A stretch of DNA of 18,367 nucleotides, from UHGV virus genome UHGV-1667981; one strand, 5' to 3'. The notes beneath the pieces were generated by a model. That model was not told where the DNA came from, searched no databases, and worked only from the letters and a program-made list of their open reading frames with translations. Made by a program: the position numbers and the translations under genes. The stretch is from a virus. Shown here piece after piece: positions 1 to 18,367 of the stretch. Every line of letters begins with the position of its first letter. The stretch's first letter is position 1.

Positions 1-124
1 TCCGCACACTCGCGCAGAGGAGTTCCCCGTCGGGCTACGGTCATAGTTAATGCGGGAATACGGCGACGATGCAGCGCGGAATTTAGCGAGCGACCACGAT
101 CGCACACGAGAAACAAAGAGATTT

Positions 125-1806: not shown

Positions 1807-2928
1807 TTACTCAAATAACTTTTTCACTTCATCAACTGTCTGAAGATAACGTTCGCCCTCAATCTCAATACCTATTGCCTGACGTCCTAACTTCAGCGCA
1901 GCTTTAATAGTTGAGCCTGATCCCATAAAGAAATCGGCAACGATATCTCCGGGGCGTGAACTACTCTTTATAATATGTTCCATCATCGCTGCAGGTTTTT
2001 CACATGGGTGCTTGCCAGGATAATATTGCACAGGAGGAAACTCCCATACATCGGTATAAGGTACATCAGCAGTAACATGAAATGGACGGCGTAAATTTTC
2101 ATACTGAGCCTTCAAATCATCATACTGCTTCTTTACTTCCTCATAATGCAATTTCAGATCGCTATAACGCTTTTCATGTTCTGAATAATCAACATTAAAA
2201 GGATATGGACACGGGACACCGAGTGAATCTGCCTTCCTGCGAAATAATTCGCATAGTTTATTAAAATCAATTAATGATGGAAGCCGCCACTGCGAATAAG
2301 AAAACCAGTGTGAACACATCTGCTTTCCTGTCGCTGAATTAATGTCTGCGGCTGATATATCTAACTGACGGCGAGCCAGCGAAAAAGCATCAATTAGTGG
2401 AGAAAAAATATTTTTTCTTAAATCTGCACATTTTGAAGCATAACCTGACTGACCTTTAGCATAACCTGACGCGCCGTAATGCTCTGCAAATAATATTCTT
2501 TCAGTAGCAGGAAAATAAGCCCTTAAACTTTCTTTATGACAACCGCGCCACATACCACTGGGTTTAGCCCAAATGATATGGTTCAGAACATTGAAACGGT
2601 CGCGAGTTAATAATTCAATTTTTGACGCAAGGCGAGAGCCGGTAAACATATACAGGCTGCCATTAGGGGCCAATATCCGCCAAAATTCTGCCAAAAATTC
2701 GTCAATCCACCCCAAAAAGTCAGCATCGCTATCCCACTGGTTATCCCATGCGTTAGCCTTTACGCCGAAGTATGGTGGGTCTGTTGCAATCAAATTGACC
2801 GAGTTATCAGGGATGGTTTTGATAAATTGCAGAGAATCTGCGCAAACGAGTTGTGCGCCATGAATATTAGTGGTTTTGAACATAGCTATTATTTTTTTGC
2901 CTGGGTAAGCTAACCCGGCGATGCGCAT
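1807..2928 (-). CDS. DNA methyltransferase, N6-adenine/N4-cytosine family (beta-class motif order)
   Basis: ORF 1807..2928(-), 373 aa. DPPY catalytic motif (IATDPPYF) near the N-terminus and AdoMet-binding FxGxG motif (DFFMGSGST) near the C-terminus. Start codon uncertain (alternative internal Met at MFKTTNIH). No adjacent restriction endonuclease gene seen, so it appears orphan. Confidence 0.85.
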   Translation of the reverse strand: MRIAGLAYPGKKIIAMFKTTNIHGAQLVCADSLQFIKTIPDNSVNLIATDPPYFGVKANAWDNQWDSDADFLGWIDEFLAEFWRILAPNGSLYMFTGSRLASKIELLTRDRFNVLNHIIWAKPSGMWRGCHKESLRAYFPATERILFAEHYGASGYAKGQSGYASKCADLRKNIFSPLIDAFSLARRQLDISAADINSATGKQMCSHWFSYSQWRLPSLIDFNKLCELFRRKADSLGVPCPYPFNVDYSEHEKRYSDLKLHYEEVKKQYDDLKAQYENLRRPFHVTADVPYTDVWEFPPVQYYPGKHPCEKPAAMMEHIIKSSSRPGDIVADFFMGSGSTIKAALKLGRQAIGIEIEGERYLQTVDEVKKLFE

Positions 2929-3018: not shown

Positions 3019-3040
3019 AAAAAAACCGCCATAAAGGCGG
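3019..3040 (-). terminator. Intrinsic terminator (minus strand): 5-bp GC stem CCGCC/GGCGG with 5-nt loop followed by U7
   Basis: Plus strand 3019-3040 is aaaaaaa-ccgcc-ataaa-ggcgg; on the minus strand this is a hairpin followed by 7 T. Lies between the small upstream minus-strand genes and the methylase-lysis block. Confidence 0.5.
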
Positions 3041-3127
3041 CTTGTTGGCTGTTGGGTACAAAAAACCCAACTTAACAAAACAATAACTAAAAACCGTCAT
3101 TTTGCCAAGCTTTTTCGTTTTTGTGCT

Positions 3128-3145
3128 GTGCGACCGTGGTCGCAC
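3128..3145. repeat. 18-bp palindrome GTGCGACC-GT-GGTCGCAC (copy 1 of 3); candidate SopB/ParB-type centromere site
   Basis: Perfect 8-bp inverted arms with 2-bp spacer; arms extend to 11 bp here (3125..3148). Same 18-mer recurs at 7507..7524 and, with 7-bp arms, at 9950..9965. Resembles the F-plasmid sopC core TGGGACC-AC-GGTCCCA as recalled. Confidence 0.5.
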
Positions 3146-3150
3146 AGCTT

Positions 3151-3378
3151 TTAGAAAGTTGCCTGCTTATATTCATCGGTCAAAGAATATCGACCAGATC
3201 CGCTACGCTTTGCAACCCCAAAACAGATCATCTGTTCGATGATAAATTCAACGGCAGCTTGACTCAAAAAACAGGCTTCGCTTAACTCTTTCAGGGAAAT
3301 GTGTGGGTATCCACGCATAACACATTCCACACTCAGGGCCGCTTCAGTCATATTTCCACGAATTTCATTAATATTCAT
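3151..3378 (-). CDS. Hypothetical small protein (75 aa)
   Basis: ORF track 3151..3378(-); no recognisable motif. Positioned upstream of the hairpin-rich control region. Confidence 0.45.
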   Translation of the reverse strand: MNINEIRGNMTEAALSVECVMRGYPHISLKELSEACFLSQAAVEFIIEQMICFGVAKRSGSGRYSLTDEYKQATF

Positions 3379-3391
3379 AACGCCTCTCTAA

Positions 3392-3613
3392 TCAATCTTG
3401 AAACTGGAAATCAACATCAGCCATAAAGCGGTTCAACTCAGCCAGTTTTGGCCCCATAGTCCCAACTAAGCGACCAGCCAGTCGGTCTGTTAGGTTGGTA
3501 CTGTTGAAACCATATTCCTTTTCGAAACGTTCAACCTTCTGCCACAACTCATACAGTTCGTTAGCTATCTCCGCAACGTCGCCGCGCATTTTTTCGTTAC
3601 CTTGATAATTCAT
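3392..3613 (-). CDS. Hypothetical small protein (73 aa from second Met)
   Basis: ORF 3392..3631(-); the in-frame ATG at 3613 is preceded by GGAGGG with a 4-nt spacer, so the shorter start is favoured. No recognisable domain. Confidence 0.5.
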   Translation of the reverse strand: MNYQGNEKMRGDVAEIANELYELWQKVERFEKEYGFNSTNLTDRLAGRLVGTMGPKLAELNRFMADVDFQFQD

Positions 3614-3778
3614 AATACCCTCCAAATTCATATAGTTAGTGGGTTATTGCCCCTCAATGACACGAACTGTAACTCTGCCAAACGAACACATCCAGTGTTA
3701 TTTTTCGCTTTTTAATGAAATTTTTAATTTGCGTTGTTTTCTTGTTTTGGTGTATTTTATGGATGTGGAGGCTATAAT

Positions 3779-4090
3779 ATGTTTAACGTGATAACCCACC
3801 CTGCAGCACTGGATGAACTGCTTGAACTACCAGATGATTTGCGAGGTCGCATGGCCAGATTAATTGAGCGACTGGAGAAAGAAGGCAACAAACTGAAGAT
3901 GCCCCATAGCCGTGTAATAGGTGGAGGGCTTTTTGAACTACGAGTAGGGGATAAAAACATCGCAAGAACGCTGTACGCCTACGCGACTGGTAACGAAATT
4001 TATCTATTGCATGCATTTGTAAAAAAGACACAGAAAACACCGGTGAAGGCTATCGAAATCGCCAGAACTCGCCTGAAGGAGATGAACTGA
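3779..4090 (+). CDS. Type II toxin, RelE/ParE superfamily, HigB-like (Gp49-like)
   Basis: ORF 3734..4090(+); favoured start ATG 3779 with GGAGG SD 8 nt upstream. Motifs GGGLFELRV and LLHAFVKKTQKTP are recalled as typical of HigB/Gp49-like toxins. Toxin-first order, stop overlaps antitoxin start (TGATG). Confidence 0.8.
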   Translation: MFNVITHPAALDELLELPDDLRGRMARLIERLEKEGNKLKMPHSRVIGGGLFELRVGDKNIARTLYAYATGNEIYLLHAFVKKTQKTPVKAIEIARTRLKEMN

Positions 4091-4377
4091 TGAAAGCGAA
4101 AGGCATCCCGTTTAACGAAGTAAAAGAAAAACTCCTCAACACTCCAGAAGCCGTCAAAGGATATGAAGAGGCCGACAAAGAGCTGGAGATGGTCGAAATG
4201 TTATACGAAATGAGGGAAAGAGCAGGTTTAACGAAATCAGCTCTGGCTGAACGAATGGGGTTACGACCGTCAGCCATCAGCCGCCTGGAAAGCAATCCTT
4301 TAGGGGCAAGTATGAAAACTTTGGCTAAATATGCTCATGCCTGCGGCGCAGCCATCGATATTCGCGCTGTTTATTAA
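4090..4377 (+). CDS. HTH (XRE-family) antitoxin, HigA-like
   Basis: ORF 4090..4377(+), 95 aa. Helix-turn-helix segment LTKSALAERMGLRPSAISRLE. AAGGAG SD 8 nt upstream. Translationally coupled to the upstream toxin. Confidence 0.85.
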   Translation: MKAKGIPFNEVKEKLLNTPEAVKGYEEADKELEMVEMLYEMRERAGLTKSALAERMGLRPSAISRLESNPLGASMKTLAKYAHACGAAIDIRAVY

Positions 4378-4393
4378 TTAGACTCTTTTACTA

Positions 4394-4413
4394 CCCCGTC
4401 CAGAAGGGCGGGG
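4394..4413. other. GC-rich hairpin between convergent genes (8-bp stem with one G-U, AGAA loop); possible non-canonical terminator
   Basis: ccccgtcc-agaa-gggcgggg. No U-tract on either side, so not a canonical intrinsic terminator. Confidence 0.3.
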
Positions 4414-4419
4414 TGTGCA

Positions 4420-4623
4420 TCAATGATGTGAACGCTCAACAGCGATAGTTTTCTGACAATGCTGGGCAATCTCTCGCGACATGTTGATGAGTCGTGAAAC
4501 CTCACCAATATGTAGGCTGGCTTCTGGAGAAGCCAGGGTGACGCTAACCAGATCCAGAATGGCGTCAATATCTCTTAAATTTGAATCGAGTTGTTCAAGA
4601 GTTGATACGGCTGCTTCAGACAT
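4420..4623 (-). CDS. Small protein (67 aa) downstream of a LexA box; candidate SOS-inducible antirepressor
   Basis: ORF 4420..4623(-). A CTGT-N8-ACAG LexA box lies 37-56 bp upstream of the start and overlaps a candidate -10. Function is inferred from context only; no sequence family recognised. Confidence 0.5.
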   Translation of the reverse strand: MSEAAVSTLEQLDSNLRDIDAILDLVSVTLASPEASLHIGEVSRLINMSREIAQHCQKTIAVERSHH

Positions 4624-4659
4624 TAAATCTCATACCATTTAACTAAAAAAGGTTGTTTG

Positions 4660-4679
4660 TACTGTATAAAATTACAGGG
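4660..4679. promoter_or_regulatory. LexA (SOS) box tACTGTATAAAATTACAGgg
   Basis: Both CTGT and ACAG half-sites intact with an AT-rich 8-bp spacer; 15/20 matches to the TACTGTATATATATACAGTA consensus by eye. Overlaps a candidate promoter (TTGAGT-17-TACAGT on the minus strand) for the 4420..4623 gene. Confidence 0.6.
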
Positions 4680-4705
4680 TAAAACTCAAACTTTACGGTC
4701 AATTT

Positions 4706-4948
4706 TCAATGAATTAACTGCGTAAACTGCTGTGTGGCCCGATACTTATGCTCTCTCCCTATGCCACGATCAACTTTCTCAAGAAGTCCAGTACGGACAG
4801 CAGAATCAAGCATCCTTTTAACAATTCTGCTATTTAACCCAACATCAAAAGCAAGCATCGAAGCGAAAACAAACCCATCACCACCATCAGAAAAGCTCTT
4901 TTCGCTCCGTTTTCGTATCATTTCAAAAAGCAATGCCTTTTTATCCAT
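4706..4948 (-). CDS. Hypothetical small protein (80 aa), possibly DNA-binding
   Basis: ORF 4706..4948(-). GGAGGG SD 4 nt upstream of ATG, immediately preceded by the CGTGACCAGTCACG palindrome. DNA-binding role is a guess. Confidence 0.5.
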   Translation of the reverse strand: MDKKALLFEMIRKRSEKSFSDGGDGFVFASMLAFDVGLNSRIVKRMLDSAVRTGLLEKVDRGIGREHKYRATQQFTQLIH

Positions 4949-4956
4949 TTATCCCT

Positions 4957-4971
4957 CCGTGACCAGTCACG
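4957..4971. promoter_or_regulatory. Palindrome CCGTGAC-CA-GTCACG (copy 1 of 2); candidate regulator binding site
   Basis: 14-bp core CGTGACCAGTCACG; its reverse complement CGTGACTGGTCACG recurs at 14594..14607 inside a longer 20-bp palindrome. Sits directly upstream of the SD of the 4706..4948 gene. Confidence 0.35.
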
Positions 4972-5293
4972 CTTTGAGCGCAAGTTTCAGCCTCGTGGTT
5001 GTAAGGTGGCATGACCCTTCGCCATCAAAAATGCATTCTGAAACAGGCATTTTTTGACCACATCGTGGGCAAGTAGTAGATAGCTGCTTCTGCAGCTCCT
5101 TATAGTTTTTCCTGATCAACAAACCAATGACTTCGTTCTCCGAATATGGAACTCGCCCTGGTCTACGCAATACACAAATTTCCCCCAACATACGTAACTC
5201 GTCAGGTTCTAGAATCCAGTCCCGTCTTGATGTGCCTTCCTTCTTCAACCGTTCCCTGCGTCTCCTTTGCCGTTCTGCCGGTGTCAGCGCCAT
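4967..5293 (-). CDS. Hypothetical protein (108 aa) with Arg-rich N-terminus and CPRCG...C..H putative zinc-binding cluster
   Basis: ORF track 4967..5293(-); QRRRRERLKK then CPRCGQ...SECIFDGEGSCH. No confident family assignment. Confidence 0.5.
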   Translation of the reverse strand: MALTPAERQRRRRERLKKEGTSRRDWILEPDELRMLGEICVLRRPGRVPYSENEVIGLLIRKNYKELQKQLSTTCPRCGQKMPVSECIFDGEGSCHLTTTRLKLALKA

Positions 5294-5308
5294 AAATCCT
5301 CCTGAAAA

Positions 5309-5968
5309 TTACTTAACCCAATTAACTACACCGCCAGCGGCCACAACCGCCCTTTCACAGTCACGCTCATATCTCAAAGGTTGAAATACACCATCAATAA
5401 AATATTTATCTCCACCAAACGTTGCAGGAAGTGAAACAGAAAACTGAACATGACCATCCGGAGTTACCGGAGAGTTGCCAGCCTCATACGCGACCCTTAT
5501 CCAGTGCATAAACATTTCAGTACTTACACATCCACAATCAACATCAATTTTGTCATGCTGCTGTTCCAGCCATTGCTCAAAAGTTAACTTGTAAGTTTGG
5601 CTTACAGGTTTGGCTTCCAGTTCTGCTACGCGCTGTTTTGCAGCATCCAGTTCAATCGACAATTTTTCCAACTGCTCTTTATGCTTCTTGTATTCCTGAT
5701 ATGCGTGCCAGGACTGACCTTTGCGCACACTATCAGTAATATCAGTAATCTGTTCTGGTGTTAGCGTAGTCAGTGGCTGTGCTGGGAAAATCAGCACTTT
5801 CCCGGAATCCCAATCAAAACCAGCGTGAATTGACTGAACCTCAACTGAGGGTGTTGAACCAATGCTGCCAGGCGAATGAATAACGATTGTTACATCCATA
5901 TCGCGACGATGGCTGTGGTTGTTGGACAAAATACGATTCACCAACTCAGAAAATTTGGAAAATTTCAT
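5309..5968 (-). CDS. Hypothetical protein (219 aa) with central coiled-coil segment
   Basis: ORF track 5309..5968(-); KEQLEKLSIELDAAKQRVAELEA heptad-like segment. Overlaps the upstream gene's stop (5965..5968), suggesting translational coupling. Confidence 0.55.
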   Translation of the reverse strand: MKFSKFSELVNRILSNNHSHRRDMDVTIVIHSPGSIGSTPSVEVQSIHAGFDWDSGKVLIFPAQPLTTLTPEQITDITDSVRKGQSWHAYQEYKKHKEQLEKLSIELDAAKQRVAELEAKPVSQTYKLTFEQWLEQQHDKIDVDCGCVSTEMFMHWIRVAYEAGNSPVTPDGHVQFSVSLPATFGGDKYFIDGVFQPLRYERDCERAVVAAGGVVNWVK

Positions 5969-6255
5969 GCTGATTCCCCTTTCTCTGCTCTCTCCTGTCG
6001 GAACATCACTATCATCAGGTCGCCTTTTGTCGCTATCTTGGCTGTTGTGCCTGGCTCAATGCGGCTAAGTTCAAATGCGTCATAGAACGCCTCTAACACT
6101 TTCTGGCGTCTTTCCTGTTTGCGGTGCTTTCCCCACTGCTTTAGAAAAACAGAGGCCGCCCACTTCCCCGCACTGAACATGATGTAAAACCAACCGAGAA
6201 GTGCCAGACCGATATTTAGGGCCGTATCGATCGTTATCGTGGTGTCGATATTCAC
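5965..6255 (-). CDS. Hypothetical small membrane protein (96 aa, one N-terminal TM helix)
   Basis: ORF track 5965..6255(-); hydrophobic LNIGLALLGWFYIMF followed by a charged tail. Start overlaps the upstream gene's stop. Confidence 0.45.
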   Translation of the reverse strand: MNIDTTITIDTALNIGLALLGWFYIMFSAGKWAASVFLKQWGKHRKQERRQKVLEAFYDAFELSRIEPGTTAKIATKGDLMIVMFRQERAEKGESA

Positions 6256-6674
6256 TACGCCACCTCCTGTAAATTTCCCTGATAAAAAGCCAGCACACGC
6301 TGCATAACTTCACTTTTCCGGCAATCGTGACAAATCATGTTCAAGCGCCTGTCGTAACGACGTATTTCTCCGTCAGGTAATGACCAGATAAGGTCTGGAT
6401 CAACCACTACCGATTTCTTCGGCTTTACTCTTGATAGTTTTTTACGGGCGTTTTGCCAGTCCTTGCGTGCTTGTGCAGACAGAAATATCCCGGAGCCAGA
6501 GATATACAAATCACCACTGGCAGCAAGCTCTCTTGATAAACGACTAACAGCACACCGGCTAATACCAGTTTCATCCGCAAGTTGCCTAACCGTTCCTCGT
6601 CCATTCAGGCGCACGAATTCCACAATTTGTTTATTCAGTTCTTCCCTCTGTTCTGGTGTAAAAGCCTTTGCCAT
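6255..6674 (-). CDS. Hypothetical DNA-binding protein (139 aa) with N-terminal HTH and CHDC motif
   Basis: ORF track 6255..6674(-); HTH-like segment TVRQLADETGISRCAVSRLSRELA. Start overlaps the exonuclease gene stop at 6674. Confidence 0.55.
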   Translation of the reverse strand: MAKAFTPEQREELNKQIVEFVRLNGRGTVRQLADETGISRCAVSRLSRELAASGDLYISGSGIFLSAQARKDWQNARKKLSRVKPKKSVVVDPDLIWSLPDGEIRRYDRRLNMICHDCRKSEVMQRVLAFYQGNLQEVA

Positions 6675-7273
6675 TACGATTCTCCTTGCCCTTTTACAAG
6701 ACGGGAGAAAATTGCGGATACATATTTAGCCTGATGAATAGCATCAGCCAGGGCATTGTGTCGTTCGCCATCAAATGGCATATCTTTTTTAGGATTAAAA
6801 CCAATAAACTGACCAAGATTAACGATTGTTCGAACATCCTGATCATTAAAATATTCCCATGGACAGGCTAAGCCAACGCGCTCATAAGCACCGCGTAAAA
6901 TTACATTATCGAACGTTGCTCCATTTCCCCATACTTTCAACTTTTTTAAATTACATGCATGGCAAGTAATAAAGTGTGATAATTCAAAAAGTGCATCATT
7001 AATATCAAGGGCATCATTAGTACAAATAGCGGCTCTGGCTTCCTTGCTCTGTTTCAACCACCATAAAATGGTATCACCATCGGCGATACCACCATTCAAC
7101 ATCGAGCTTCTGAGATTCACTGGCACATAAAAAGTAGGACCTAATTCCTCACTTTCTGGAGAAAAAAACACTGCCCCGATAGAAACAATTGGAGCACATG
7201 TGTTAGTACCCATTGTTTCAAGGTCAATCATTACATCAGACCGTTTCCTGTCGTAAATAATCTGATTAGTCAC
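6674..7273 (-). CDS. DEDDh-type 3'-5' exonuclease (DnaQ-like fold)
   Basis: ORF 6674..7273(-), 199 aa; GTG start with GAGGAG SD 8 nt upstream. Exo I-like motif MIDLETMG (D-x-E) and C-terminal H-x4-D (ERHNALADAIH). Confidence 0.7.
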   Translation of the reverse strand: MTNQIIYDRKRSDVMIDLETMGTNTCAPIVSIGAVFFSPESEELGPTFYVPVNLRSSMLNGGIADGDTILWWLKQSKEARAAICTNDALDINDALFELSHFITCHACNLKKLKVWGNGATFDNVILRGAYERVGLACPWEYFNDQDVRTIVNLGQFIGFNPKKDMPFDGERHNALADAIHQAKYVSAIFSRLVKGQGES

Positions 7274-7296
7274 GAATAATTCTCCTCAACGTTTAT

Positions 7297-7524
7297 CTAT
7301 ACCCAAATTTTCTGTTGATATGTTCTGGATGGTTTTGGCGTTCTTTCTGATTCAGGTAAATGAACATAAACACAATATCCATCACCTAAAAAATCAGAAC
7401 GAACAACCAGAACTTTCTTACCACGCCGCCGATAAGTATCTGAAAGACGCTCTGCTTCATCATGCGTCATCGGCCCCTGCTTAAATGGCGTTATTTTCAT
7501 TTTCTTGTGCGACCACGGTCGCAC
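7297..7524 (-). CDS. Hypothetical small protein; start codon ambiguous (7524, 7500 or 7470)
   Basis: ORF track 7297..7524(-). The longest version overlaps the 3' end of the 7481..7801 ORF and the palindrome at 7507..7524; a shorter start at 7470 (MTHDEAERL, preceded by AGGGG) avoids the overlap. Confidence 0.3.
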   Translation of the reverse strand: MRPWSHKKMKITPFKQGPMTHDEAERLSDTYRRRGKKVLVVRSDFLGDGYCVYVHLPESERTPKPSRTYQQKIWV

Positions 7525-7801
7525 CCTCTCTGATTTCCAAGTAACGCTTAATCCAAAGATTTTCTATATGCTTATTACCTGGCTGATTTGATAAATACCA
7601 ATCGGCAATTACAGACTGCTTATTACTATCTGGTCGTGTCCTGTAACCACAAGTTGGACACCAGATAACATATTCATTTCTTACCCCCGAATACCTTAAT
7701 TCTGGCTTCGACGGTTTCCTGAACATAACTTGTTTACAAAGGCAGAATGGCACTTCCTGCCCTATGGCGTTTGATGATTTCACTGCGCTTCTCCGCCGCA
7801 T
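7481..7801 (-). CDS. Hypothetical Cys-rich protein (106 aa), possible zinc ribbon
   Basis: ORF track 7481..7801(-); FCLC...WCPTCGY cysteine pairs. C-terminal codons GCG ACC GTG GTC GCA CAA (ATVVAQ) are the 18-bp palindrome. Overlaps the upstream gene by 68 nt at its 5' end, so the start is uncertain. Confidence 0.4.
   Translation of the reverse strand: MRRRSAVKSSNAIGQEVPFCLCKQVMFRKPSKPELRYSGVRNEYVIWCPTCGYRTRPDSNKQSVIADWYLSNQPGNKHIENLWIKRYLEIREGATVVAQENENNAI
7507..7524. repeat. 18-bp palindrome GTGCGACC-AC-GGTCGCAC (copy 2 of 3, opposite orientation)
   Basis: Exact reverse complement of the 18-mer at 3128..3145. Lies at the overlap junction of two minus-strand ORFs. Confidence 0.5.
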
Positions 7802-8444
7802 TTAATAATGCAGTTCGATTTAAGCTCAGACATCGCGACTTAATTAAAAGCCAGCGTTCTTTATAATCTTGTCTCCAGCTATCAATAGATATATTCAGTA
7901 GAAAACTCAGATGCCTGTCCTGTTCTCTCTCATCAACTGCCTCAGCACACGTAAGTTCTGATTTAACCTGCTGTGCCGCGTAATAAATCAATTTCCGCAT
8001 GGCTTTTTTCGTGGAGGCCTTCATTTTTTTAAAGCCGCCCCCCGAATGAGCAACCAGAAAATCAAGCCATAACCACTGACAAACAATCACATCATTGTTG
8101 TAATCAGGCTTGCATCCGTAGCAATAATAAAGCCAGGCTGATTCCTCGTTATTCAACTGACCAATAGCCCTGCGCCAGCTGGCGCTCTGAAAATCAATAT
8201 CAGTGAGCAACATTGATGATTGTTTAAATGTTTTCCCCTGATGGAATCTAACCGGCTCAGCAGGAACGGACACTTCGTATGAGTTATCATCCCCCACACT
8301 GATTGACCGGACTGGTTTATAGTTAAACCGTCCTGACCTACCGAGACGCATCTGCTCAAGCTGGACCTCCAGAATGCCACCCTGGCGATAATGAACATCA
8401 GCCAATGCCGTAGAGACGCAGCTGCGTATATACTCAAGCTCCAC
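7734..8444 (-). CDS. Hypothetical protein (236 aa); candidate Q-like late regulator by position downstream of cro
   Basis: ORF 7734..8444(-), GTG start preceded by AAGGAG. Several Cys (YYCYGCKPDY). Function is inferred only from synteny with the N15-type immB order (cB, cro, Q) as recalled; no motif-level support. Confidence 0.5.
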   Translation of the reverse strand: MELEYIRSCVSTALADVHYRQGGILEVQLEQMRLGRSGRFNYKPVRSISVGDDNSYEVSVPAEPVRFHQGKTFKQSSMLLTDIDFQSASWRRAIGQLNNEESAWLYYCYGCKPDYNNDVIVCQWLWLDFLVAHSGGGFKKMKASTKKAMRKLIYYAAQQVKSELTCAEAVDEREQDRHLSFLLNISIDSWRQDYKERWLLIKSRCLSLNRTALLNAAEKRSEIIKRHRAGSAILPL

Positions 8445-8655
8445 GCTTACTACTCTCCTTAATCGACTGCTTTACCCGCCGAGTTGTAAAGTCACTCTTC
8501 AGCTTATAAGCAGTACGAACTTCAATATCGCTTTGCCGCAATGAAGGAATCTCTCCAGCGGTTAACCATTGGTAAACAGCTCCGGGTGTTACACCTACCC
8601 CTGCCGCTGCTTTTTCTACACTGCCAAAATGGCGAATAAGTTCTTCTGGTTTCAT
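8434..8655 (-). CDS. Cro-like HTH regulator (divergent from the repressor)
   Basis: ORF 8434..8682(-); first ATG at 8655 gives MKPEELIRHFGSVEKAAAGVGVTPGAVYQWL, an HTH-like segment. Divergent from the CI-like gene across an operator-containing intergenic region. Confidence 0.7.
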   Translation of the reverse strand: MKPEELIRHFGSVEKAAAGVGVTPGAVYQWLTAGEIPSLRQSDIEVRTAYKLKSDFTTRRVKQSIKESSKRGA

Positions 8656-8682
8656 GTTGTTATTATAAACAATAAACAACAA

Positions 8683-8724
8683 TTAAAGCCAGCTATAACA
8701 AATAAATTTTATAGCCAGCTATAA
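8683..8724. promoter_or_regulatory. Two operator-like sites in the cro/repressor intergenic region: TTAAAGCCAGCTATAA (8683..8698) and palindromic TTATAGC-CA-GCTATAA (8709..8724)
   Basis: AGCCAGCTATAA repeated directly at 8687 and 8713 (26-bp spacing); the second copy has 7-bp inverted arms. Located between divergent HTH regulator genes, the classic position for operators. Confidence 0.55.
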
Positions 8725-8746
8725 GAAGATCATTTATGATTACAGT

Positions 8747-9343
8747 ATGAAAACACGAGGCGAACGACTGAAAGCACGCCGTTTAGAGATGAAGCTGACG
8801 TTGCGAGAAGTTGCTGAGGCTGTCGATATCTCTATAGCAGGCGTCCAAAACTTAGAACGTGGCGACGTAATGCCGTCACTGGAGATAGGTATTGCCCTGG
8901 CTAAGTGCTTACGCAAGCCAGTGCATTGGGTGCTATATGGGACAGAATATGACCCTGATCGCATTCCTGTTATTGGCACAACTGAAAGTGGGCCAGATGA
9001 AGAGTGGAAGCCGGGACAGGTTCCAAATACTGAGCGATTCCTGCCATTCATCAGCCAGCGCAATACTGTGTATGCGTTAACTATCAGCAATCTTACGCAG
9101 GGAAACTATCAGCCAGGCGATTTTCTCCTGGTCGATTCTGCGCTGGAACTGGTCCCCGGCGAGGATGTTCTGGTTCGTGATACTGCAGGAAATATCACTA
9201 TCCAGCGCCTGGCCCGTTTTGATGATGAAAATTACTATCTGGATGGAACAAACTCACAACGCGCCATCTTCAGGAAAAGCGATCTTGAATTTGTTCACCA
9301 AATAGTCGGAACGATCAAATCATTCATGGTTGAGGGTAGATGA
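8747..9343 (+). CDS. CI/CB-like prophage repressor: N-terminal XRE-type HTH plus C-terminal LexA/S24-like domain
   Basis: ORF 8747..9343(+), 198 aa. HTH region LTLREVAEAVDISIAGVQNLERG; C-terminal PGDFLLVD...GEDVLVRD resembles the S24 fold. No obvious Ser in a G-x-S-M context, so autocleavage may be absent. Confidence 0.85.
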   Translation: MKTRGERLKARRLEMKLTLREVAEAVDISIAGVQNLERGDVMPSLEIGIALAKCLRKPVHWVLYGTEYDPDRIPVIGTTESGPDEEWKPGQVPNTERFLPFISQRNTVYALTISNLTQGNYQPGDFLLVDSALELVPGEDVLVRDTAGNITIQRLARFDDENYYLDGTNSQRAIFRKSDLEFVHQIVGTIKSFMVEGR

Positions 9344-9442
9344 CTTAATACGGGGTTTATTGTTTGCTGTAAATCTGGTTTAATGCAGGGCATATGTTCT
9401 GTGGGTTGACTCAGGTTACAGCAGCAGAAAAAAGACGAAAAA

Positions 9443-9471
9443 AACCCGAGTCGGCAAACTCGGGTCCTTTT
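9443..9471 (+). terminator. Intrinsic terminator downstream of the repressor gene (8-bp stem ACCCGAGT/ACTCGGGT, 6-nt loop, T-tract)
   Basis: acccgagt-cggcaa-actcgggt then ccTTTTc; preceded by an A-tract, so it could act bidirectionally. Confidence 0.6.
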
Positions 9472-9587
9472 CAGGAAGCAGCCACAACAAAGCGACGGAT
9501 TCCGTCAATCAAAGATGCGTTTATTGTGGCTGCTCCTGCGGATTTTTTCAACCCGAAAAAACATAATTCGCATGGAATGGCTAAAAA

Positions 9588-12500
9588 ATGACATTAAACG
9601 ATTTCTATGCGGATCGCTTTGGCAGCGATCCGTTCTCGCTAATTGAAGCAGCACGGGATGAACTAACCGAGCTGGCACAGATGGCTGGTATCAACTGGCC
9701 TGCCTGTTCCGACAACATCCAACTCAACCCTCGCGGGGGTGTTGAGCGTTACTCTTCATACAATAAAACATCTCCAGAAGCTCTCGAGAAGAGCCTCAAA
9801 GGACGCGTAGAAATTTACTCCCGGCTGGAACACAGCAAAGGGATTGATTATCCGTTCATTAACTTCGTCCATAAAGGCAGCGATGCTGGCTCATGGAGCG
9901 GTTTCTCCTTCCTGTTTTCTGAATATCGCCGTGAGCAACAGCGGAATAATGCGACCGTGGTCGCACAACCGGAAGAAGAACGGGCAAGAATAGAACGTCA
10001 GGCCGAAGCACGTCGTCGCCGTGAAGAACAAAAACGAATTAATGACCTGAAAAACAACCAAATGGACCATGAACGTTTGCTGGGATGGCTGGCATTTCAC
10101 AGCGCGTGGGAACATGCTCCTGCAGAAGACGGCTCGTGGCCATATGCGATTAAAAAAGGTATTCGTGACGTTTTTAATTCGTGTGATGTGCGTCGCGTGA
10201 CCAGTCACGACAGCGCAAAATGGAGCAGGGGGCCAACCACGTATATGGCTATCCCTCTGGCTCACCTGGACGGTCGTTACGATGGTCGTATTGTGGGTTG
10301 GCAGCGAATCGACAAACAAGGTGGAAAATACCAGACCAGCGCCGTAACCAGCGGCGATTTCGTCGGTGCCTGCTTTGTTATCGGTGAGCTAAAAGGGGCG
10401 CAAAACATCGCTGTTACAGAAGGTTTTGCTACTGGTGCATCCATCTGGCTTGCCACGAAAAAAGATAAACGCTTTGACGCTGTGGTTGTCGCTGTATCCG
10501 CTAACAACATGGTTCATGTTGTGGAACAACTGGTAAACATGTACCCGGCGGCAAAAATCACCTGCGCACTGGATAATGACAGGAAATCAGCTACAGAAGG
10601 AAAAGGGAATACCGGCCTGCGGACTGGCTATGAAATCTTATCGAAATTCAACGATGTCCGCTGCGTCTATCCAACTTTTGAAGACGATCCGCAAATGGAG
10701 TGCAGTGACTTCAACGACCTGCACAAACTACGTGGACTTCGTGAAACAGCACGTCAACTGTTTGCAACTGCAAACCGCCTGAAAACTGGCACTGATTTGC
10801 TATCTCTGACGCTCAACCGCCTGAAGACAATTAAGCGGGATAACCGTCGTACTTTTGCCAAAGAGCTGCTGAGAGCGGTGGATATTGGCATGCTAACCTG
10901 CCCGGTTCCTAACAGTCCGTCAGATTTATTTAACATGTTCTGCATCGTTCTGCGTGAAATGGGACTGGAAAATATCTATCGCGCTACGGTAAAAGACCAC
11001 ATTGCCCGTCGCCTGAATAAAAAGTGCCGTATTGCCCAGGCTCCGCGCTCTTTCAGCGAACGCATAACTGATCCCAATAAACGCCCTCAACATATCACCT
11101 ATAAGCGTTTTGAAACTTCGGTAATGACCGATGATGTCCTGAAGTACGTGCAATCACTACAGGGGATAGTCATCGTCCGTGCTGGTATGGGTTCCGGCAA
11201 ATCTACTGGATTGTTACGACCGTTAATGCATAGCTCAGAACGTGGTATCTCTGTTGCTCACCGTGTCTCCCTTATTGGTGGCCTGTGGGAAATGATGACA
11301 GAAGGAAAAGGTGTAAAAGCCGATATCCTGCACTATCAGGACCCTGGCTATCAGGAAATGGCTCCATACGCCAGTAAACTGACCATCTGCATAAACTCGA
11401 TTGTTAAAAACTGCTGGCAACCGTTGATGCGCCAGCACGACTATTTTGGCTTTGACGAGGCCACGCAAGGGCTACGTGCCGTTCTTTCCGGTCGGGCTAT
11501 GGAAAACCCGGTTGCTGTATTCAATACGCTAATTGACGCGCTGGCCAGAACGGAACAACACCCAATCATGGTGGATGCTGATGCGAACGATCTACTGGTT
11601 GACCTGGCTGAACTGGCTATGAAACGCCGTGAAGAACTAGGTTTACCGGCATGGCTGCAGATCCACGTAATTGAATTACCTGTTGATGTTTGCAACCGCG
11701 AAACAGGTGAGCCAATCCGGGTTTTTTATACAGAAAAAGATCGCATCATGACCGAGGTGGTGAAAGCTGTATCGGATGGCGAAAAAATCATGTTGGCCAC
11801 CGACAGCTCCACCTTTGCAGAAGATGTGACAGCCACCCTGAGAATGCATTTTCCTGGTAAGAAATTTCTGTGTGTAAACCAGAAAAACAAACCAGAGCCA
11901 GAAGTTGAAGCATTTACCAATCAACCGAAAAAGATGGTCAAAAAATACGACGGCCTGATTTATAGCCCGTCTATTTCATCCGGCGTGTCGATTGAGCAAA
12001 AACATTTTGACCGTCATTTCGGCATGTTCTGTGGTGAAGTTGTACCCAGCGACGCAGTGCAAATGCTACGCCGCGACCGTACAGCAAAAGAATTTATTAT
12101 CGGCTTTGATAAAGCTCGTGCAAAACGTGAAACTGACCCGCAAAAAATAGAACGAGCATTCGCCCAGGCATTGCTTGCTACCGCAGGTATGAACGGTGAA
12201 CTTACGGATGTCGTTTTCGATGGCGACCGTATATCAATGGGGGTGGCCAATACCGACTTTACCAGGATGAAAATTAAAGCAGCCGCAATTGAAGCGACTG
12301 CGCGTAACGACTACGCCAGCAACATGATCTGCATCATGCACAGCGACGGTTATAAGGTATCACCGCTGGCCACCGATTATGCTGCGAATGATATCGGTAA
12401 AGATCTGCGTAAAGAAGCGCGGGATATTGTGTGGGAACAGACACTGGATCTGCACCTCAATACAGAAACTCCACAAGAATCAGAGCGTGAAGAACTGCTA

Positions 12501-13583
12501 AAAAAACGCGCGCTGACGCTTGAAGAACAGGCAAAACTTGTCCGCTGGGATATTGAAAACGAACTGAAACTACCGGTTGAAGAAGGCACGCTGAAATTCT
12601 ATTTCGATGGTGCTCGAGACAAAGTTCGCCGCTATGAAACAATGCTTTTAGATGAGGTAACAGCTCGTCGTTACGACCGGGAAGAAGCAGCCATCAATTT
12701 TACCTACGCATACCGTCAGGCGGGACAGTGGCAATATTTTGTAGTGACCGCGATGACTCGCGAGCAGGCTGATGATGTCTTTAAAACTAAATTCCCTGGA
12801 ATAATCGATCACAAGGTAAAAGCTACTCCTACTGTTGAAGTCGGGGCGCGCGGTTTCTATGCGCTTAAATCAGCAACTCTCCGGCAGTACTTTATCGACT
12901 GCGGTATCAACCCTGAAACTATGACCGGCGAGGCGACTCAGGAGCGTCTCAAATTCGCTCGAGATAACCTCATGACAGCCGAACGCCGTGACCTGTTGAA
13001 TAACGTTCTGCACATTGGTGGTTTTATGACGCCAAAAGGGAAGCCTAAAGTGCCGGAAGCGTTGTTTAAAAACATTTGCGACTCTCTTGGCCTTAAAACA
13101 GGTAAACGTCGCGGCAGAGACGGCGATAAGCGTCCAACCTTGCGTTTTGTTGAGCCCGAATCAGCGGCATTTATGCTGGATATTCTTGTTCAGCGTCAGA
13201 AAGATGGCCTAACCCTAAAAACGCGTAAAGCCGAGAAGACAGCCATCGAAATGGATCGCGATTTGGATCTCAATATATATATGGATGATAAAACGCGATC
13301 CACAAACGAGCAGGTTCAAAACGCCCCTCATTCAGTAATTTCTGAGGCTTTGGCCGTATTGCCGGTGGCTGTTCCTGAGTCCTGGGCGATGAGTGCGCTT
13401 TCCGGTGAGGAGCTGGCCACTATGTCATCATGGTCATCAACCAGCATAGCTATGACGTTTGCATCTCTGTACCTCACAGAGTTCATGGATCACTTGTCCA
13501 GCAATGAACTGCGGCGGTTACGAGAATACATTACCGGGAATAGCTCATGCAGCTACGAAGAGCAGGGCGCTTTCTATGGGTAA
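9588..13583 (+). CDS. repA: Multifunctional replication protein, primase-helicase (N15 RepA-type, 1331 aa)
   Basis: ORF 9588..13583(+). TOPRIM-like primase signature (AVTEGFATGASIW ... CALDNDRKS) in the N-terminal third; Walker A RAGMGSGKSTG and Walker B-like FGFDEATQG in the middle. Size and architecture match N15 RepA (about 1300 aa) as recalled. Confidence 0.9.
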   Translation: MTLNDFYADRFGSDPFSLIEAARDELTELAQMAGINWPACSDNIQLNPRGGVERYSSYNKTSPEALEKSLKGRVEIYSRLEHSKGIDYPFINFVHKGSDAGSWSGFSFLFSEYRREQQRNNATVVAQPEEERARIERQAEARRRREEQKRINDLKNNQMDHERLLGWLAFHSAWEHAPAEDGSWPYAIKKGIRDVFNSCDVRRVTSHDSAKWSRGPTTYMAIPLAHLDGRYDGRIVGWQRIDKQGGKYQTSAVTSGDFVGACFVIGELKGAQNIAVTEGFATGASIWLATKKDKRFDAVVVAVSANNMVHVVEQLVNMYPAAKITCALDNDRKSATEGKGNTGLRTGYEILSKFNDVRCVYPTFEDDPQMECSDFNDLHKLRGLRETARQLFATANRLKTGTDLLSLTLNRLKTIKRDNRRTFAKELLRAVDIGMLTCPVPNSPSDLFNMFCIVLREMGLENIYRATVKDHIARRLNKKCRIAQAPRSFSERITDPNKRPQHITYKRFETSVMTDDVLKYVQSLQGIVIVRAGMGSGKSTGLLRPLMHSSERGISVAHRVSLIGGLWEMMTEGKGVKADILHYQDPGYQEMAPYASKLTICINSIVKNCWQPLMRQHDYFGFDEATQGLRAVLSGRAMENPVAVFNTLIDALARTEQHPIMVDADANDLLVDLAELAMKRREELGLPAWLQIHVIELPVDVCNRETGEPIRVFYTEKDRIMTEVVKAVSDGEKIMLATDSSTFAEDVTATLRMHFPGKKFLCVNQKNKPEPEVEAFTNQPKKMVKKYDGLIYSPSISSGVSIEQKHFDRHFGMFCGEVVPSDAVQMLRRDRTAKEFIIGFDKARAKRETDPQKIERAFAQALLATAGMNGELTDVVFDGDRISMGVANTDFTRMKIKAAAIEATARNDYASNMICIMHSDGYKVSPLATDYAANDIGKDLRKEARDIVWEQTLDLHLNTETPQESEREELLKKRALTLEEQAKLVRWDIENELKLPVEEGTLKFYFDGARDKVRRYETMLLDEVTARRYDREEAAINFTYAYRQAGQWQYFVVTAMTREQADDVFKTKFPGIIDHKVKATPTVEVGARGFYALKSATLRQYFIDCGINPETMTGEATQERLKFARDNLMTAERRDLLNNVLHIGGFMTPKGKPKVPEALFKNICDSLGLKTGKRRGRDGDKRPTLRFVEPESAAFMLDILVQRQKDGLTLKTRKAEKTAIEMDRDLDLNIYMDDKTRSTNEQVQNAPHSVISEALAVLPVAVPESWAMSALSGEELATMSSWSSTSIAMTFASLYLTEFMDHLSSNELRRLREYITGNSSCSYEEQGAFYG
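9950..9965. repeat. Palindrome TGCGACC-GT-GGTCGCA (copy 3 of 3), inside repA coding sequence
   Basis: Shares the 16-bp core gcgaccgtggtcgcac (9951..9966) with the 18-mer at 3128..3145; 7-bp inverted arms here, because the flanking base is A rather than G. Encodes ATVVAQ in the repA frame, the same peptide the copy at 7507..7524 encodes in the 7481..7801 ORF. Confidence 0.5.
13252..13302. other. Candidate internal replication origin element within the 3' part of repA: 9-bp inverted repeat flanking an (AT)n tract with three GATC sites
   Basis: tggatcgcg (13252..13260) and cgcgatcca (13294..13302) flank atttggatctcaatatatatatggatgataaaa. GATC at 13254, 13266 and 13297. Confidence 0.35.
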
Positions 13584-18340: not shown

Positions 18341-18367
18341 AATCAGCACATAATTCCCCATTATACG
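18341..18367. other. Telomere-resolution site half (telO-like): AATCAGCACATAATTCCCCATTATACG, ending at the palindrome centre
   Basis: The final 10 bases CCATTATACG are the left half of the N15 telO core CCATTATACGCGCGTATAATGG as recalled; the preceding ATCAGCACATAAT resembles the flanking N15 telRL arm. The window stops exactly where the palindrome would turn. Confidence 0.65.

What the first reader, a model, noticed from the sequence alone, without database searches (positions are those of the whole stretch)
3128..9967. Dispersed 18-bp palindrome GTGCGACC-N2-GGTCGCAC, three copies, two of them in-frame inside genes
Copies at 3128..3145, 7507..7524 (reverse orientation) and 9950..9965 (16-bp core, 7-bp arms). 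Three occurrences of a 16-18-bp palindrome in 18 kb is far beyond chance. Both intragenic copies (repA and the 7481..7801 ORF) encode the same hexapeptide ATVVAQ, so the DNA site appears to be maintained at the expense of coding freedom. The motif closely resembles the F-plasmid SopB binding core TGGGACC-AC-GGTCCCA as recalled, and N15 is known to scatter single inverted-repeat centromere sites around its genome rather than clustering them. No partition gene is in this window, so the cognate sopAB-like genes would lie elsewhere on the replicon.
Basis: partly seen in the sequence, partly recalled or inferred. Interest (0 to 1): 0.75.

Follow-up and report, generated by a model that had tools for sequence, protein, structure and literature searches.

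The report
N15-type SopB centromere sites, dispersed

Summary
GTGCGACC-NN-GGTCGCAC occurs at 3128, 7507 and 9949 (16-bp core intact in all three). A fourth, decayed copy lies at 88..105. Shuffles expect 0.03 matches.

The window is the right arm of an N15-like linear phage-plasmid: lysis genes, methylase, Q, cro/cB, repA, telN, then a hairpin telomere.

The motif is letter for letter the published N15 SopB-binding site. The window copies sit at positions orthologous to N15 IR1 (in repA), IR2 (3' of Q), IR3 (19 nt upstream of the late promoter) and IR4. The phiKO2 GenBank record annotates the same four places as putative partition sites.

The window has no sopAB. Complete close relatives (96-98% identical) carry sopA/sopB on the other arm, and their SopB helix-turn-helix is of the N15 type.

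New support found here:
- The site codons in repA show almost no synonymous variation.
- Yersinia phage PY54 has an F-like ParB helix-turn-helix and carries the F-type TGGGACC-NN-GGTCCCA at the same aligned codons. There ATVVA becomes GTTVP in both genes.

Binding and stabilisation were not tested here.

The parts
9949..9966 (.). IR1-equivalent centromere site inside repA (ATGCGACCGTGGTCGCAC; 16-bp core perfect), read as A122-TVVA-Q127
   Evidence: The flanks are homologous to N15 33479..33496, which is IR1 of PMC7205306 Table 4. PMC2847241 states that an N15 centromere site lies within repA.
7507..7524 (.). IR2-equivalent site, perfect. It lies at the 3' end of the lar-like ORF downstream of Q, 6 nt upstream of the ATG (7500) of the next small gene.
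   Evidence: The flanks are homologous to N15 35930..35947 (IR2). The same place is annotated in phiKO2 at 40345..40362.
3128..3145 (.). IR3-equivalent site, perfect, with arms extendable to 10 bp. It lies 5 nt after the stop of the gp51-like gene and 19 nt upstream of the -35 hexamer of the late promoter.
   Evidence: It is homologous to N15 41124..41141 (IR3), which lies upstream of the annotated N15 -35/-10, and to phiKO2 45384..45401.
88..105 (.). Decayed IR4-equivalent copy (GAGCGACCACGATCGCAC). It has a G-to-A change in one GGTC half-site and lies 19 nt after the stop of the DUF4406 gene.
   Evidence: Relatives have a perfect copy at this place. The changed G corresponds to a guanine contacted by a conserved Arg in the F SopB-DNA structure (PMC2910045).
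3080..3108 (-). Late promoter-like element (TTGGCA-17-TATTGT), homologous to the annotated N15 late promoter
3023..3043 (-). Terminator-like hairpin with a T-run, downstream of the late promoter (Q-antitermination target by analogy with N15 and lambda)
   Evidence: It is homologous to the N15 stem_loop at 41229..41250.
7734..8444 (-). Q antiterminator gene
   Evidence: Pfam Phage_antiter_Q, E 9.4e-83
7481..7801 (-). Lar-like zinc-ribbon ORF ('QD1'), which carries IR2 near its 3' end
   Evidence: Conserved ORF in five lineages. Weak Pfam Lar_restr_allev match below the cut-off. The PY54 homologue is annotated as Lar-like.
9588..13583 (+). repA (primase/helicase-type replication protein), which carries IR1
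   Evidence: RefSeq calls the relatives 'CyRepA1 family'.
16258..18177 (-). Protelomerase telN. The window then ends (18367) inside the telO palindrome, that is, at the hairpin telomere.
   Evidence: Pfam TelK domains. The window end ...CCCATTATACG matches half of the PhiR46_1 tel site.

Best explanation
The palindromes are the dispersed centromere (parS/sopC-like) sites of an N15-type linear phage-plasmid. A SopB (ParB-family) dimer, encoded with SopA on the other arm of the replicon, is expected to bind each 16-bp core TGCGACC-NN-GGTCGCA through its helix-turn-helix. It should then nucleate a partition complex, which the SopA ATPase positions so that each daughter cell inherits the low-copy prophage. 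Shown here: sequence identity with the experimentally defined N15 sites, orthologous placement, DNA-level purifying selection, co-variation of site type with ParB recognition helix, and presence of sopAB in complete relatives. Inferred: binding and partition function in this particular element. By analogy with N15 (Ravin, Rech and Lane 2008, J Bacteriol 190:3538, recalled, not readable here), the copies beside Q (7507) and beside the late promoter (3128) probably also help Q-dependent late transcription after induction. The copy at 88..105 is probably weakened or inactive.
For: Motif statistics: 4 matches against 0.03 expected.

Identity of the element: the window is about 97% identical to Ravinvirus phage-plasmids YDC107_1 and PhiR46_1 and to about 15 E. 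coli plasmid records of about 46 kb.

Match to the known sites: N15 has exactly four matches. Their flanks equal the IR1-IR4 oligonucleotides used to build an N15 centromere on which N15 SopB forms foci (PMC7205306). PMC2847241 says sopAB stabilises plasmids that carry the N15 centromere site within repA. PMC2910045 says N15 and F sites differ at one base per half-site and that SopB residues 179-200 set the specificity.

Placement: the phiKO2 record annotates 'putative plasmid partitioning site' at the same four relative positions. In complete relatives every copy lies in the right arm and none in the roughly 25-kb structural arm.

Cognate proteins: relatives encode SopA and a ParB 72-73% identical to N15 SopB, with helix-turn-helix GNVK(A/S)LAEAE(G/N)(I/V)DRNII(S/T)RC.

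Co-variation: F SopB and PY54 SpyB share ENISRKII and go with TGGGACC sites. The N15 group has (I/V)DRNI and goes with TGCGACC sites.

DNA-level selection: in 18 distinct repA segments the codons GCG, ACC and GTC show no synonymous variant, and the fourth site codon (usually GTG), which carries the two central N positions, varies in 2 of 18. Flanking four-fold-degenerate codons have 2-4 variants each.

Distribution: in IMG/VR, 24 of 25 multi-site stretches are N15-like. In bacterial genomes, 117 of 120 stretches are singletons with no DNA similar to the window, mostly in high-GC genomes, as chance predicts.
Against: No sopA/sopB lies in the window, and the window's own replicon could not be recovered because there is no exact match. 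The cognate protein is therefore inferred from relatives that are 96-98% identical. The palindrome-preserving C/G switch in PY54 would equally preserve a hairpin, so on its own it does not separate protein binding from nucleic-acid structure. The only estimate is a calculation: about 0.001 expected per 4.6-Mb genome for 16 specified bases. IR4-type copies also occur in integrated lambdoid prophages that need no centromere.
Confidence: 0.92

Rival explanations
1. The copies at 7507 and 3128 act mainly as regulatory elements. SopB bound at both would bring the Q gene region and the late promoter together (or modulate the promoter by spreading) to permit late gene expression, with partition resting mostly on the repA copy. 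This adds to the centromere reading rather than excluding it.
For: The site at 7507 lies just downstream of Q. The site at 3128 lies 19 nt upstream of the -35 hexamer of the conserved late promoter, which is followed by a terminator. This arrangement is kept in N15, phiKO2 and PY54. Ravin, Rech and Lane 2008 (cited in PMC11652158; content recalled from memory) reported delayed lysis for N15 IR2 and IR3 mutants.
Against: In N15 the four IRs are described together as the centromere sites IR1-4 (PMC7205306). Nothing in the sequence separates a regulatory copy from a partition copy. Not testable here.
Confidence: 0.4
2. The palindromes work as RNA or DNA hairpins (transcription terminators, RNA stability or processing signals, or cruciforms) rather than as protein-binding sites.
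For: Each folds into a GC-rich hairpin (-9.6 to -20.1 kcal/mol). N15 IR4 is annotated as a putative rho-independent terminator. The symmetric C/G switch in PY54 and the symmetric variant in phage 2B8 keep the pairing.
Against: None of the four is followed by a T-run, and none is flagged by the terminator scan. Folding is a trivial property of any palindrome. One copy sits in the middle of the repA reading frame, where termination would be harmful. The site type tracks the ParB recognition helix. N15 SopB has been shown to form foci on an array of these sites (PMC7205306).
Confidence: 0.03
3. They are binding sites for another phage-encoded dimeric protein (a repressor, or the target of the adjacent methylase or a restriction system), or a generic host repeat.
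For: A DNA methylase gene (1807..2928) lies near one copy. Palindromes are typical targets of dimeric regulators.
Against: The N15 CB repressor operators are annotated elsewhere. The motif is absent from the structural arm of complete relatives. In bacterial genomes it appears as singletons in unrelated taxa, at about the rate chance predicts. There are published genetic and cytological data for SopB.
Confidence: 0.03

Closest known systems
N15 centromere sites IR1-IR4 of the Sop partition system (Ravin and Lane 1999, J Bacteriol 181:6898; Grigoriev and Lobocka 2001, Mol Microbiol 42:355; used in PMC7205306)
   Same: The 16-18-bp palindrome is identical. The sites are single copies dispersed over the right arm. 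They occupy the same four positions (repA, 3' of Q, upstream of the late promoter, after the DUF4406-like gene). sopAB lies on the other arm next to the telomere (in relatives).
   Different: The host element is a different Ravinvirus lineage, about 76% DNA identity to N15 in the shared regions. The IR4-equivalent is decayed in this window. Close relatives have an extra fifth copy about 220 bp beyond the window's left end.
phiKO2 'putative plasmid partitioning sites' (GenBank NC_005857 misc_features; Casjens et al. 2004)
   Same: Same motif, four copies, and same relative positions, including the one inside repA.
   Different: The host is Klebsiella. Those sites are annotated from sequence only, as here.
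F plasmid sopC
   Same: Same type Ia ParABS system. The 16-bp inverted repeat differs at one base per half-site (TGGGACC against TGCGACC). The SopB proteins are homologous (PMC2910045).
   Different: F has 12 tandem 43-bp repeats next to sopB (10 in another account, PMC7205306). Here the sites are single copies scattered over about 10 kb, two of them inside genes. No F-type core is present in the window.
PY54 dispersed F-type sites with SpyA/SpyB
   Same: Dispersed palindromes lie at the same aligned codons of repA and of the lar-like gene, upstream of the methylase/late region, and after the DUF4406 gene.
   Different: The core is TGGGACC (F-type), and the ParB helix-turn-helix is ENISRKII as in F. 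There are eight copies, some of them in the structural arm.

Membership tests
N15-type SopB centromere sites (IR1-IR4) | Palindrome with the 16-bp core TGCGACC-NN-GGTCGCA, as in the published N15 IRs | tested here: met
   The cores are perfect at 3129..3144, 7508..7523 and 9950..9965. The copy at 88..105 has two core mismatches.
N15-type SopB centromere sites (IR1-IR4) | Single copies dispersed at positions orthologous to IR1 (repA), IR2 (3' of Q), IR3 (5' of the late promoter) and IR4 | tested here: met
   Flank homology and gene context
N15-type SopB centromere sites (IR1-IR4) | Cognate sopA/sopB operon on the same replicon | not testable with these tools
   The window holds no par genes, and no exact source record was found. 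Three complete close relatives carry sopA/parB on the other arm.
N15-type SopB centromere sites (IR1-IR4) | SopB recognition helix of N15 specificity (residues 179-200 of N15 SopB) | tested here: met
   Tested in relatives only. They have GNVK(A/S)LAEAE(G/N)(I/V)DRNII(S/T)RC, N15 has GNVKALAEAEGIDRNIVNRC, and F has [20 protein letters not shown] (PMC2910045).
N15-type SopB centromere sites (IR1-IR4) | SopB binding and SopAB-dependent plasmid stabilisation or incompatibility | not testable with these tools
   Experimental. Shown for N15 itself in the literature.
N15-type SopB centromere sites (IR1-IR4) | The motif is specific to the element and is not a generic host repeat | tested here: inconclusive
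   The viral scan shows clustering in N15-like contigs, and the bacterial scan gives mostly singletons in unrelated genomes. IR4-type copies do occur in lambdoid prophages.
F plasmid sopC | Tandem 43-bp repeats adjacent to sopB, with core TGGGACC-NN-GGTCCCA | tested here: not met
   There is no F-type core with up to 3 mismatches in the window or its relatives. The copies are dispersed, not tandem.
Intrinsic (rho-independent) terminator | GC-rich hairpin followed directly by a U-tract | tested here: not met
   No T-run follows any copy, and none is listed by the terminator scan.

The most novel reading that the evidence does not exclude
The centromere palindromes are hard-wired into two protein-coding genes (repA and the lar-like gene) in one fixed reading frame. 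When this phage-plasmid family changed ParB specificity (N15-type TGCGACC against F/PY54-type TGGGACC), every dispersed site switched in concert. That forced Ala-to-Gly and Ala-to-Pro replacements in both proteins, so the partition system dictates protein sequence. In addition, decayed or orphan copies sit at what look like mosaic junctions with integrated lambdoid prophages. This hints that the sites travel with, or mark, recombination modules exchanged between phage-plasmids and ordinary prophages. I could not check whether either point has already been published: Casjens et al. 2004 and Hertwig et al. 2003 were not readable.
Probability: 0.2. Interest if true: 0.35.

Novelty: already known. 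Interest (0 to 1): 0.12.

Why it matters
It matters little for discovery. The Sop system of N15, with its dispersed IR1-IR4 centromere sites, has been characterised genetically, biochemically and cytologically since 1999, and it is even used in commercial linear cloning vectors. Three practical points follow. First, these sites should be annotated in the many unannotated N15-like E. coli phage-plasmids. Second, the repA copy means any mini-replicon built from this element carries a centromere. Third, the comparison between the N15 group and PY54 is a clean natural example of centromere and ParB co-evolution overriding protein-coding preference.

Tried and rejected
- I looked for the window's exact source in 5,426 complete E. 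coli genomes and in the phage collection. The best matches were 96-98% identical, so the window's own sopAB could not be read.
- I tried to read the primary papers: Ravin and Lane 1999 (PMC94163), Ravin et al. 2008 (PMC2394991) and Casjens et al. 2004 (PMC355964). None is held. Their content is cited through papers that quote them, or is marked as recalled.
- The whole-collection motif scans stopped at 120 rows, so they give distribution patterns but not a count for host chromosomes. Counting the bare 18-mer in E. coli chromosomes with BLAST is not feasible, because the query is too short for a significant E-value.
- I rejected F-type sopC membership, because there is no TGGGACC core.
- I rejected the terminator reading.
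- I rejected the idea that the shared hexapeptide is itself evidence of constraint, since sharing a frame has a 1-in-3 chance. I replaced it with the synonymous-site test.
- YDC107_1 (CP025712.1) could not serve as a complete reference. The record is a fold-back assembly around the telomere and lacks the sop arm.
Full report
**Observation.** A search for GTGCGACC-NN-GGTCGCAC with up to 3 mismatches finds four sites:
- 3128..3145, perfect;
- 7507..7524, perfect;
- 88..105, GAGCGACCACGATCGCAC, with two mismatches.

Dinucleotide-preserving shuffles expect 0.03 matches, and none of 200 shuffles reaches four. Direct reading confirms the sequences. The repA copy is read GCG ACC GTG GTC GCA CAA, giving A122-TVVA-Q127. 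The copy in ORF 7481..7801 (-) is read in the same frame and gives ATVVAQ.

**What the window is.** The window is about 97% identical over about 95% of its length to Escherichia phages YDC107_1 (genus Ravinvirus) and PhiR46_1. It is 96-98% identical to about 15 E. coli plasmid records of about 46 kb. It is about 74-76% identical to N15 and phiKO2 across Q-cro-cB-repA. Pfam confirms Q (7734..8444 -), a DNA methylase (1807..2928 -), RepA (9588..13583 +) and a protelomerase (16258..18177 -). The last bases...CCCATTATACG, are half of the tel palindrome annotated at the end of PhiR46_1. The window is therefore the right arm of an N15-like linear phage-plasmid and runs to the hairpin telomere. No exact source record was found.

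**Identity of the motif.** N15 itself contains exactly four matches, at 33479 (in repA), 35930, 41124 and 45561. Their flanks match the four oligonucleotide pairs 'IR1-IR4' that Lane and co-workers joined to build an N15 centromere array, on which N15 SopB forms foci (PMC7205306 Table 4 and text). The only difference is one base of IR1. Three other papers agree:
- PMC2910045 states that the N15 and F sites differ at one nucleotide per half-site, and that residues 179-200 of N15 SopB carry the specificity.
- PMC3597684 gives the F site as TGGGACCACGGTCCCA.

**Orthologous placement.** The four window copies have flanks homologous to N15 IR1-IR4 and lie in the same order.
- 9949 lies in repA at the same aligned codons as IR1.
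- 7507 lies at the 3' end of a conserved lar-like ORF that overlaps the end of Q, 6 nt before the ATG of the next small gene.
- 3128 lies 5 nt after the gp51-like stop and 19 nt upstream of TTGGCA-17-TATTGT. That element aligns with the annotated N15 late promoter and is followed by a conserved terminator.
- 88 lies 19 nt after the DUF4406 gene.

The phiKO2 GenBank record annotates 'putative plasmid partitioning site' at the same four relative positions. In complete relatives (PhiR46_1, pPEC1013-3, pZ1323HEC0355-3, N15, phiKO2, MStein-2023a) every copy is in the right arm and none is in the structural arm.

**Cognate proteins.** The window has no par genes. The complete relatives carry sopA and a ParB-family gene next to the other telomere. 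Those ParBs are 72-73% identical to N15 SopB, and their closest solved structure is F SopB (E 6e-39). Their recognition region reads GNVK(A/S)LAEAE(G/N)(I/V)DRNII(S/T)RC. N15 has GNVKALAEAEGIDRNIVNRC and F has [20 protein letters not shown].

**New supporting evidence: co-variation.** Yersinia phage PY54 is a more distant telomere phage (RepA about 47% identical). It has no N15-type site but has eight TGGGACC-NN-GGTCCCA (F-type) sites. Its ParB, SpyB, has ENISRKII, as in F. Four of the eight sites are positional homologues of IR1-IR4. In repA the PY54 site occupies exactly the aligned codons: GGG ACC ACG GTC CCA (G-T-T-V-P) against GCG ACC GTG GTC GCA (A-T-V-V-A). The same holds in the lar-like ORF, which reads ...GTTVPQ... 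against ...ATVVAQ.... The amino-acid differences Ala/Gly and Ala/Pro are exactly what the centromere specificity base dictates.

**New supporting evidence: selection at the DNA level.** Among 18 distinct repA segments collected from all fetched loci, the site codons GCG, ACC and GTC show no synonymous variant. The fourth codon (usually GTG) contains the two unspecified central positions of the site and varies in 2 of 18 segments. Flanking four-fold-degenerate codons show 2-4 variants each. This is direct evidence that the DNA sequence, not the peptide, is under selection.

**Distribution.** In IMG/VR, 72 of 120 matching stretches contain DNA similar to the window, and 24 of 25 multi-site stretches do. 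Across 185,579 species genomes, 117 of 120 stretches are singletons with no DNA similar to the window, in taxa that are mostly high in G+C. The only multi-site N15-like case is a 46-kb Pseudocitrobacter contig. About 140 chance hits are expected in 596 Gb for 16 specified bases, and more in high-GC DNA. The calculated expectation is about 0.001 per genome.

**Rival readings.** All copies fold as hairpins, as any palindrome must (-9.6 to -20.1 kcal/mol). None has a downstream T-run, and none appears in the terminator scan. A terminator inside repA would also be harmful. The symmetric C/G switch cannot by itself separate a hairpin from the binding site of a dimer, but the link to the ParB recognition helix and the published SopB data do. 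A regulatory role for the Q-proximal and promoter-proximal copies fits the anatomy. It was reported for N15 by Ravin, Rech and Lane (2008), a paper cited in PMC11652158; I recall its content but could not read it. This adds to the centromere function rather than replacing it.

**The fourth copy.** At 88..105 one half-site reads GATC instead of GGTC. In the F SopB-DNA structure the two guanines of this half-site step are contacted by conserved arginines (PMC2910045). Mutating the neighbouring guanine abolishes binding (PMC3597684). The copy is therefore probably weakened, which is an inference. The same allele, with 200 bp of identical flank, occurs in an integrated lambdoid prophage of E. coli NCCP 15734 and in three IMG/VR stretches, whereas the N15-like relatives have a perfect copy there. 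The left 1.4 kb of the window (DUF4406, Rz, lysozyme) is thus a mosaic module shared with lambdoid phages.

**Verdict.** It is the already-described N15-type Sop centromere, found in an uncharacterised close relative. Confidence in the mechanism is about 0.9. The steps not shown here are the presence of sopAB on this very replicon, and binding and stabilisation.

Noticed in passing
window 88..105 (and L250 1588..1605): The decayed IR4-type copy GAGCGACCACGATCGCAC, with 200 bp of flank, is identical to a copy in an integrated lambdoid prophage of the E. coli NCCP 15734 chromosome. N15-like relatives have a perfect site here. The window's left 1.4 kb (DUF4406, Rz, lysozyme) is a mosaic module shared with lambdoid phages.
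   Followed up: partly
L001 18300..18317; L251 93..110; L065 2127..2144: Close relatives carry a fifth copy about 220 bp beyond the 88..105 site, about 130 nt outside the window's left end. Lambdoid phage 2B8 has a palindrome-preserving variant, GTGCAACCACGGTTGCAC, at that place. Other lambdoid phages share sequence only from just to the right of the IR, which suggests a mosaic junction at the site. A 131-kb Escherichia sp. contig holds a single perfect copy.
   Followed up: partly
window 18357..18367: The window ends in ...CCCATTATACG, half of the telO-like palindrome CCATTATACGCGCGTATAATGG annotated at the end of PhiR46_1. The right end of the window is therefore the hairpin telomere of the linear prophage.
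   Followed up: partly
window 7481..7801 (-): This is a conserved 106-aa zinc-ribbon ORF (CLC...CPTC) with a weak Lar_restr_allev match. It overlaps the 3' end of Q by 68 nt. It is intact in N15, phiKO2, MStein-2023a and PY54, but it is not annotated in the N15 RefSeq record or by PGAP in the relatives.
   Followed up: partly
L001 (CP025712.1) about 34650..46701: The YDC107_1 'complete genome' record is a fold-back assembly. The repA-telN arm is duplicated in inverted orientation around the telomere, and the arm carrying sopAB and part of the tail genes is missing.
   Followed up: no
L248 (Klebsiella phage Kpn_R1) 24257..41593: This more divergent relative has eight N15-type sites. Several are closely spaced pairs (24257/24284, 32688/32843, 36090/36137), so site number is variable within the family.
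   Followed up: no
window 3126..3147: The IR3-equivalent palindrome extends to 10-bp arms (CTGTGCGACC-AC-GGTCGCACAG), giving the most stable hairpin of the four (-20.1 kcal/mol). The significance is unknown.
   Followed up: no
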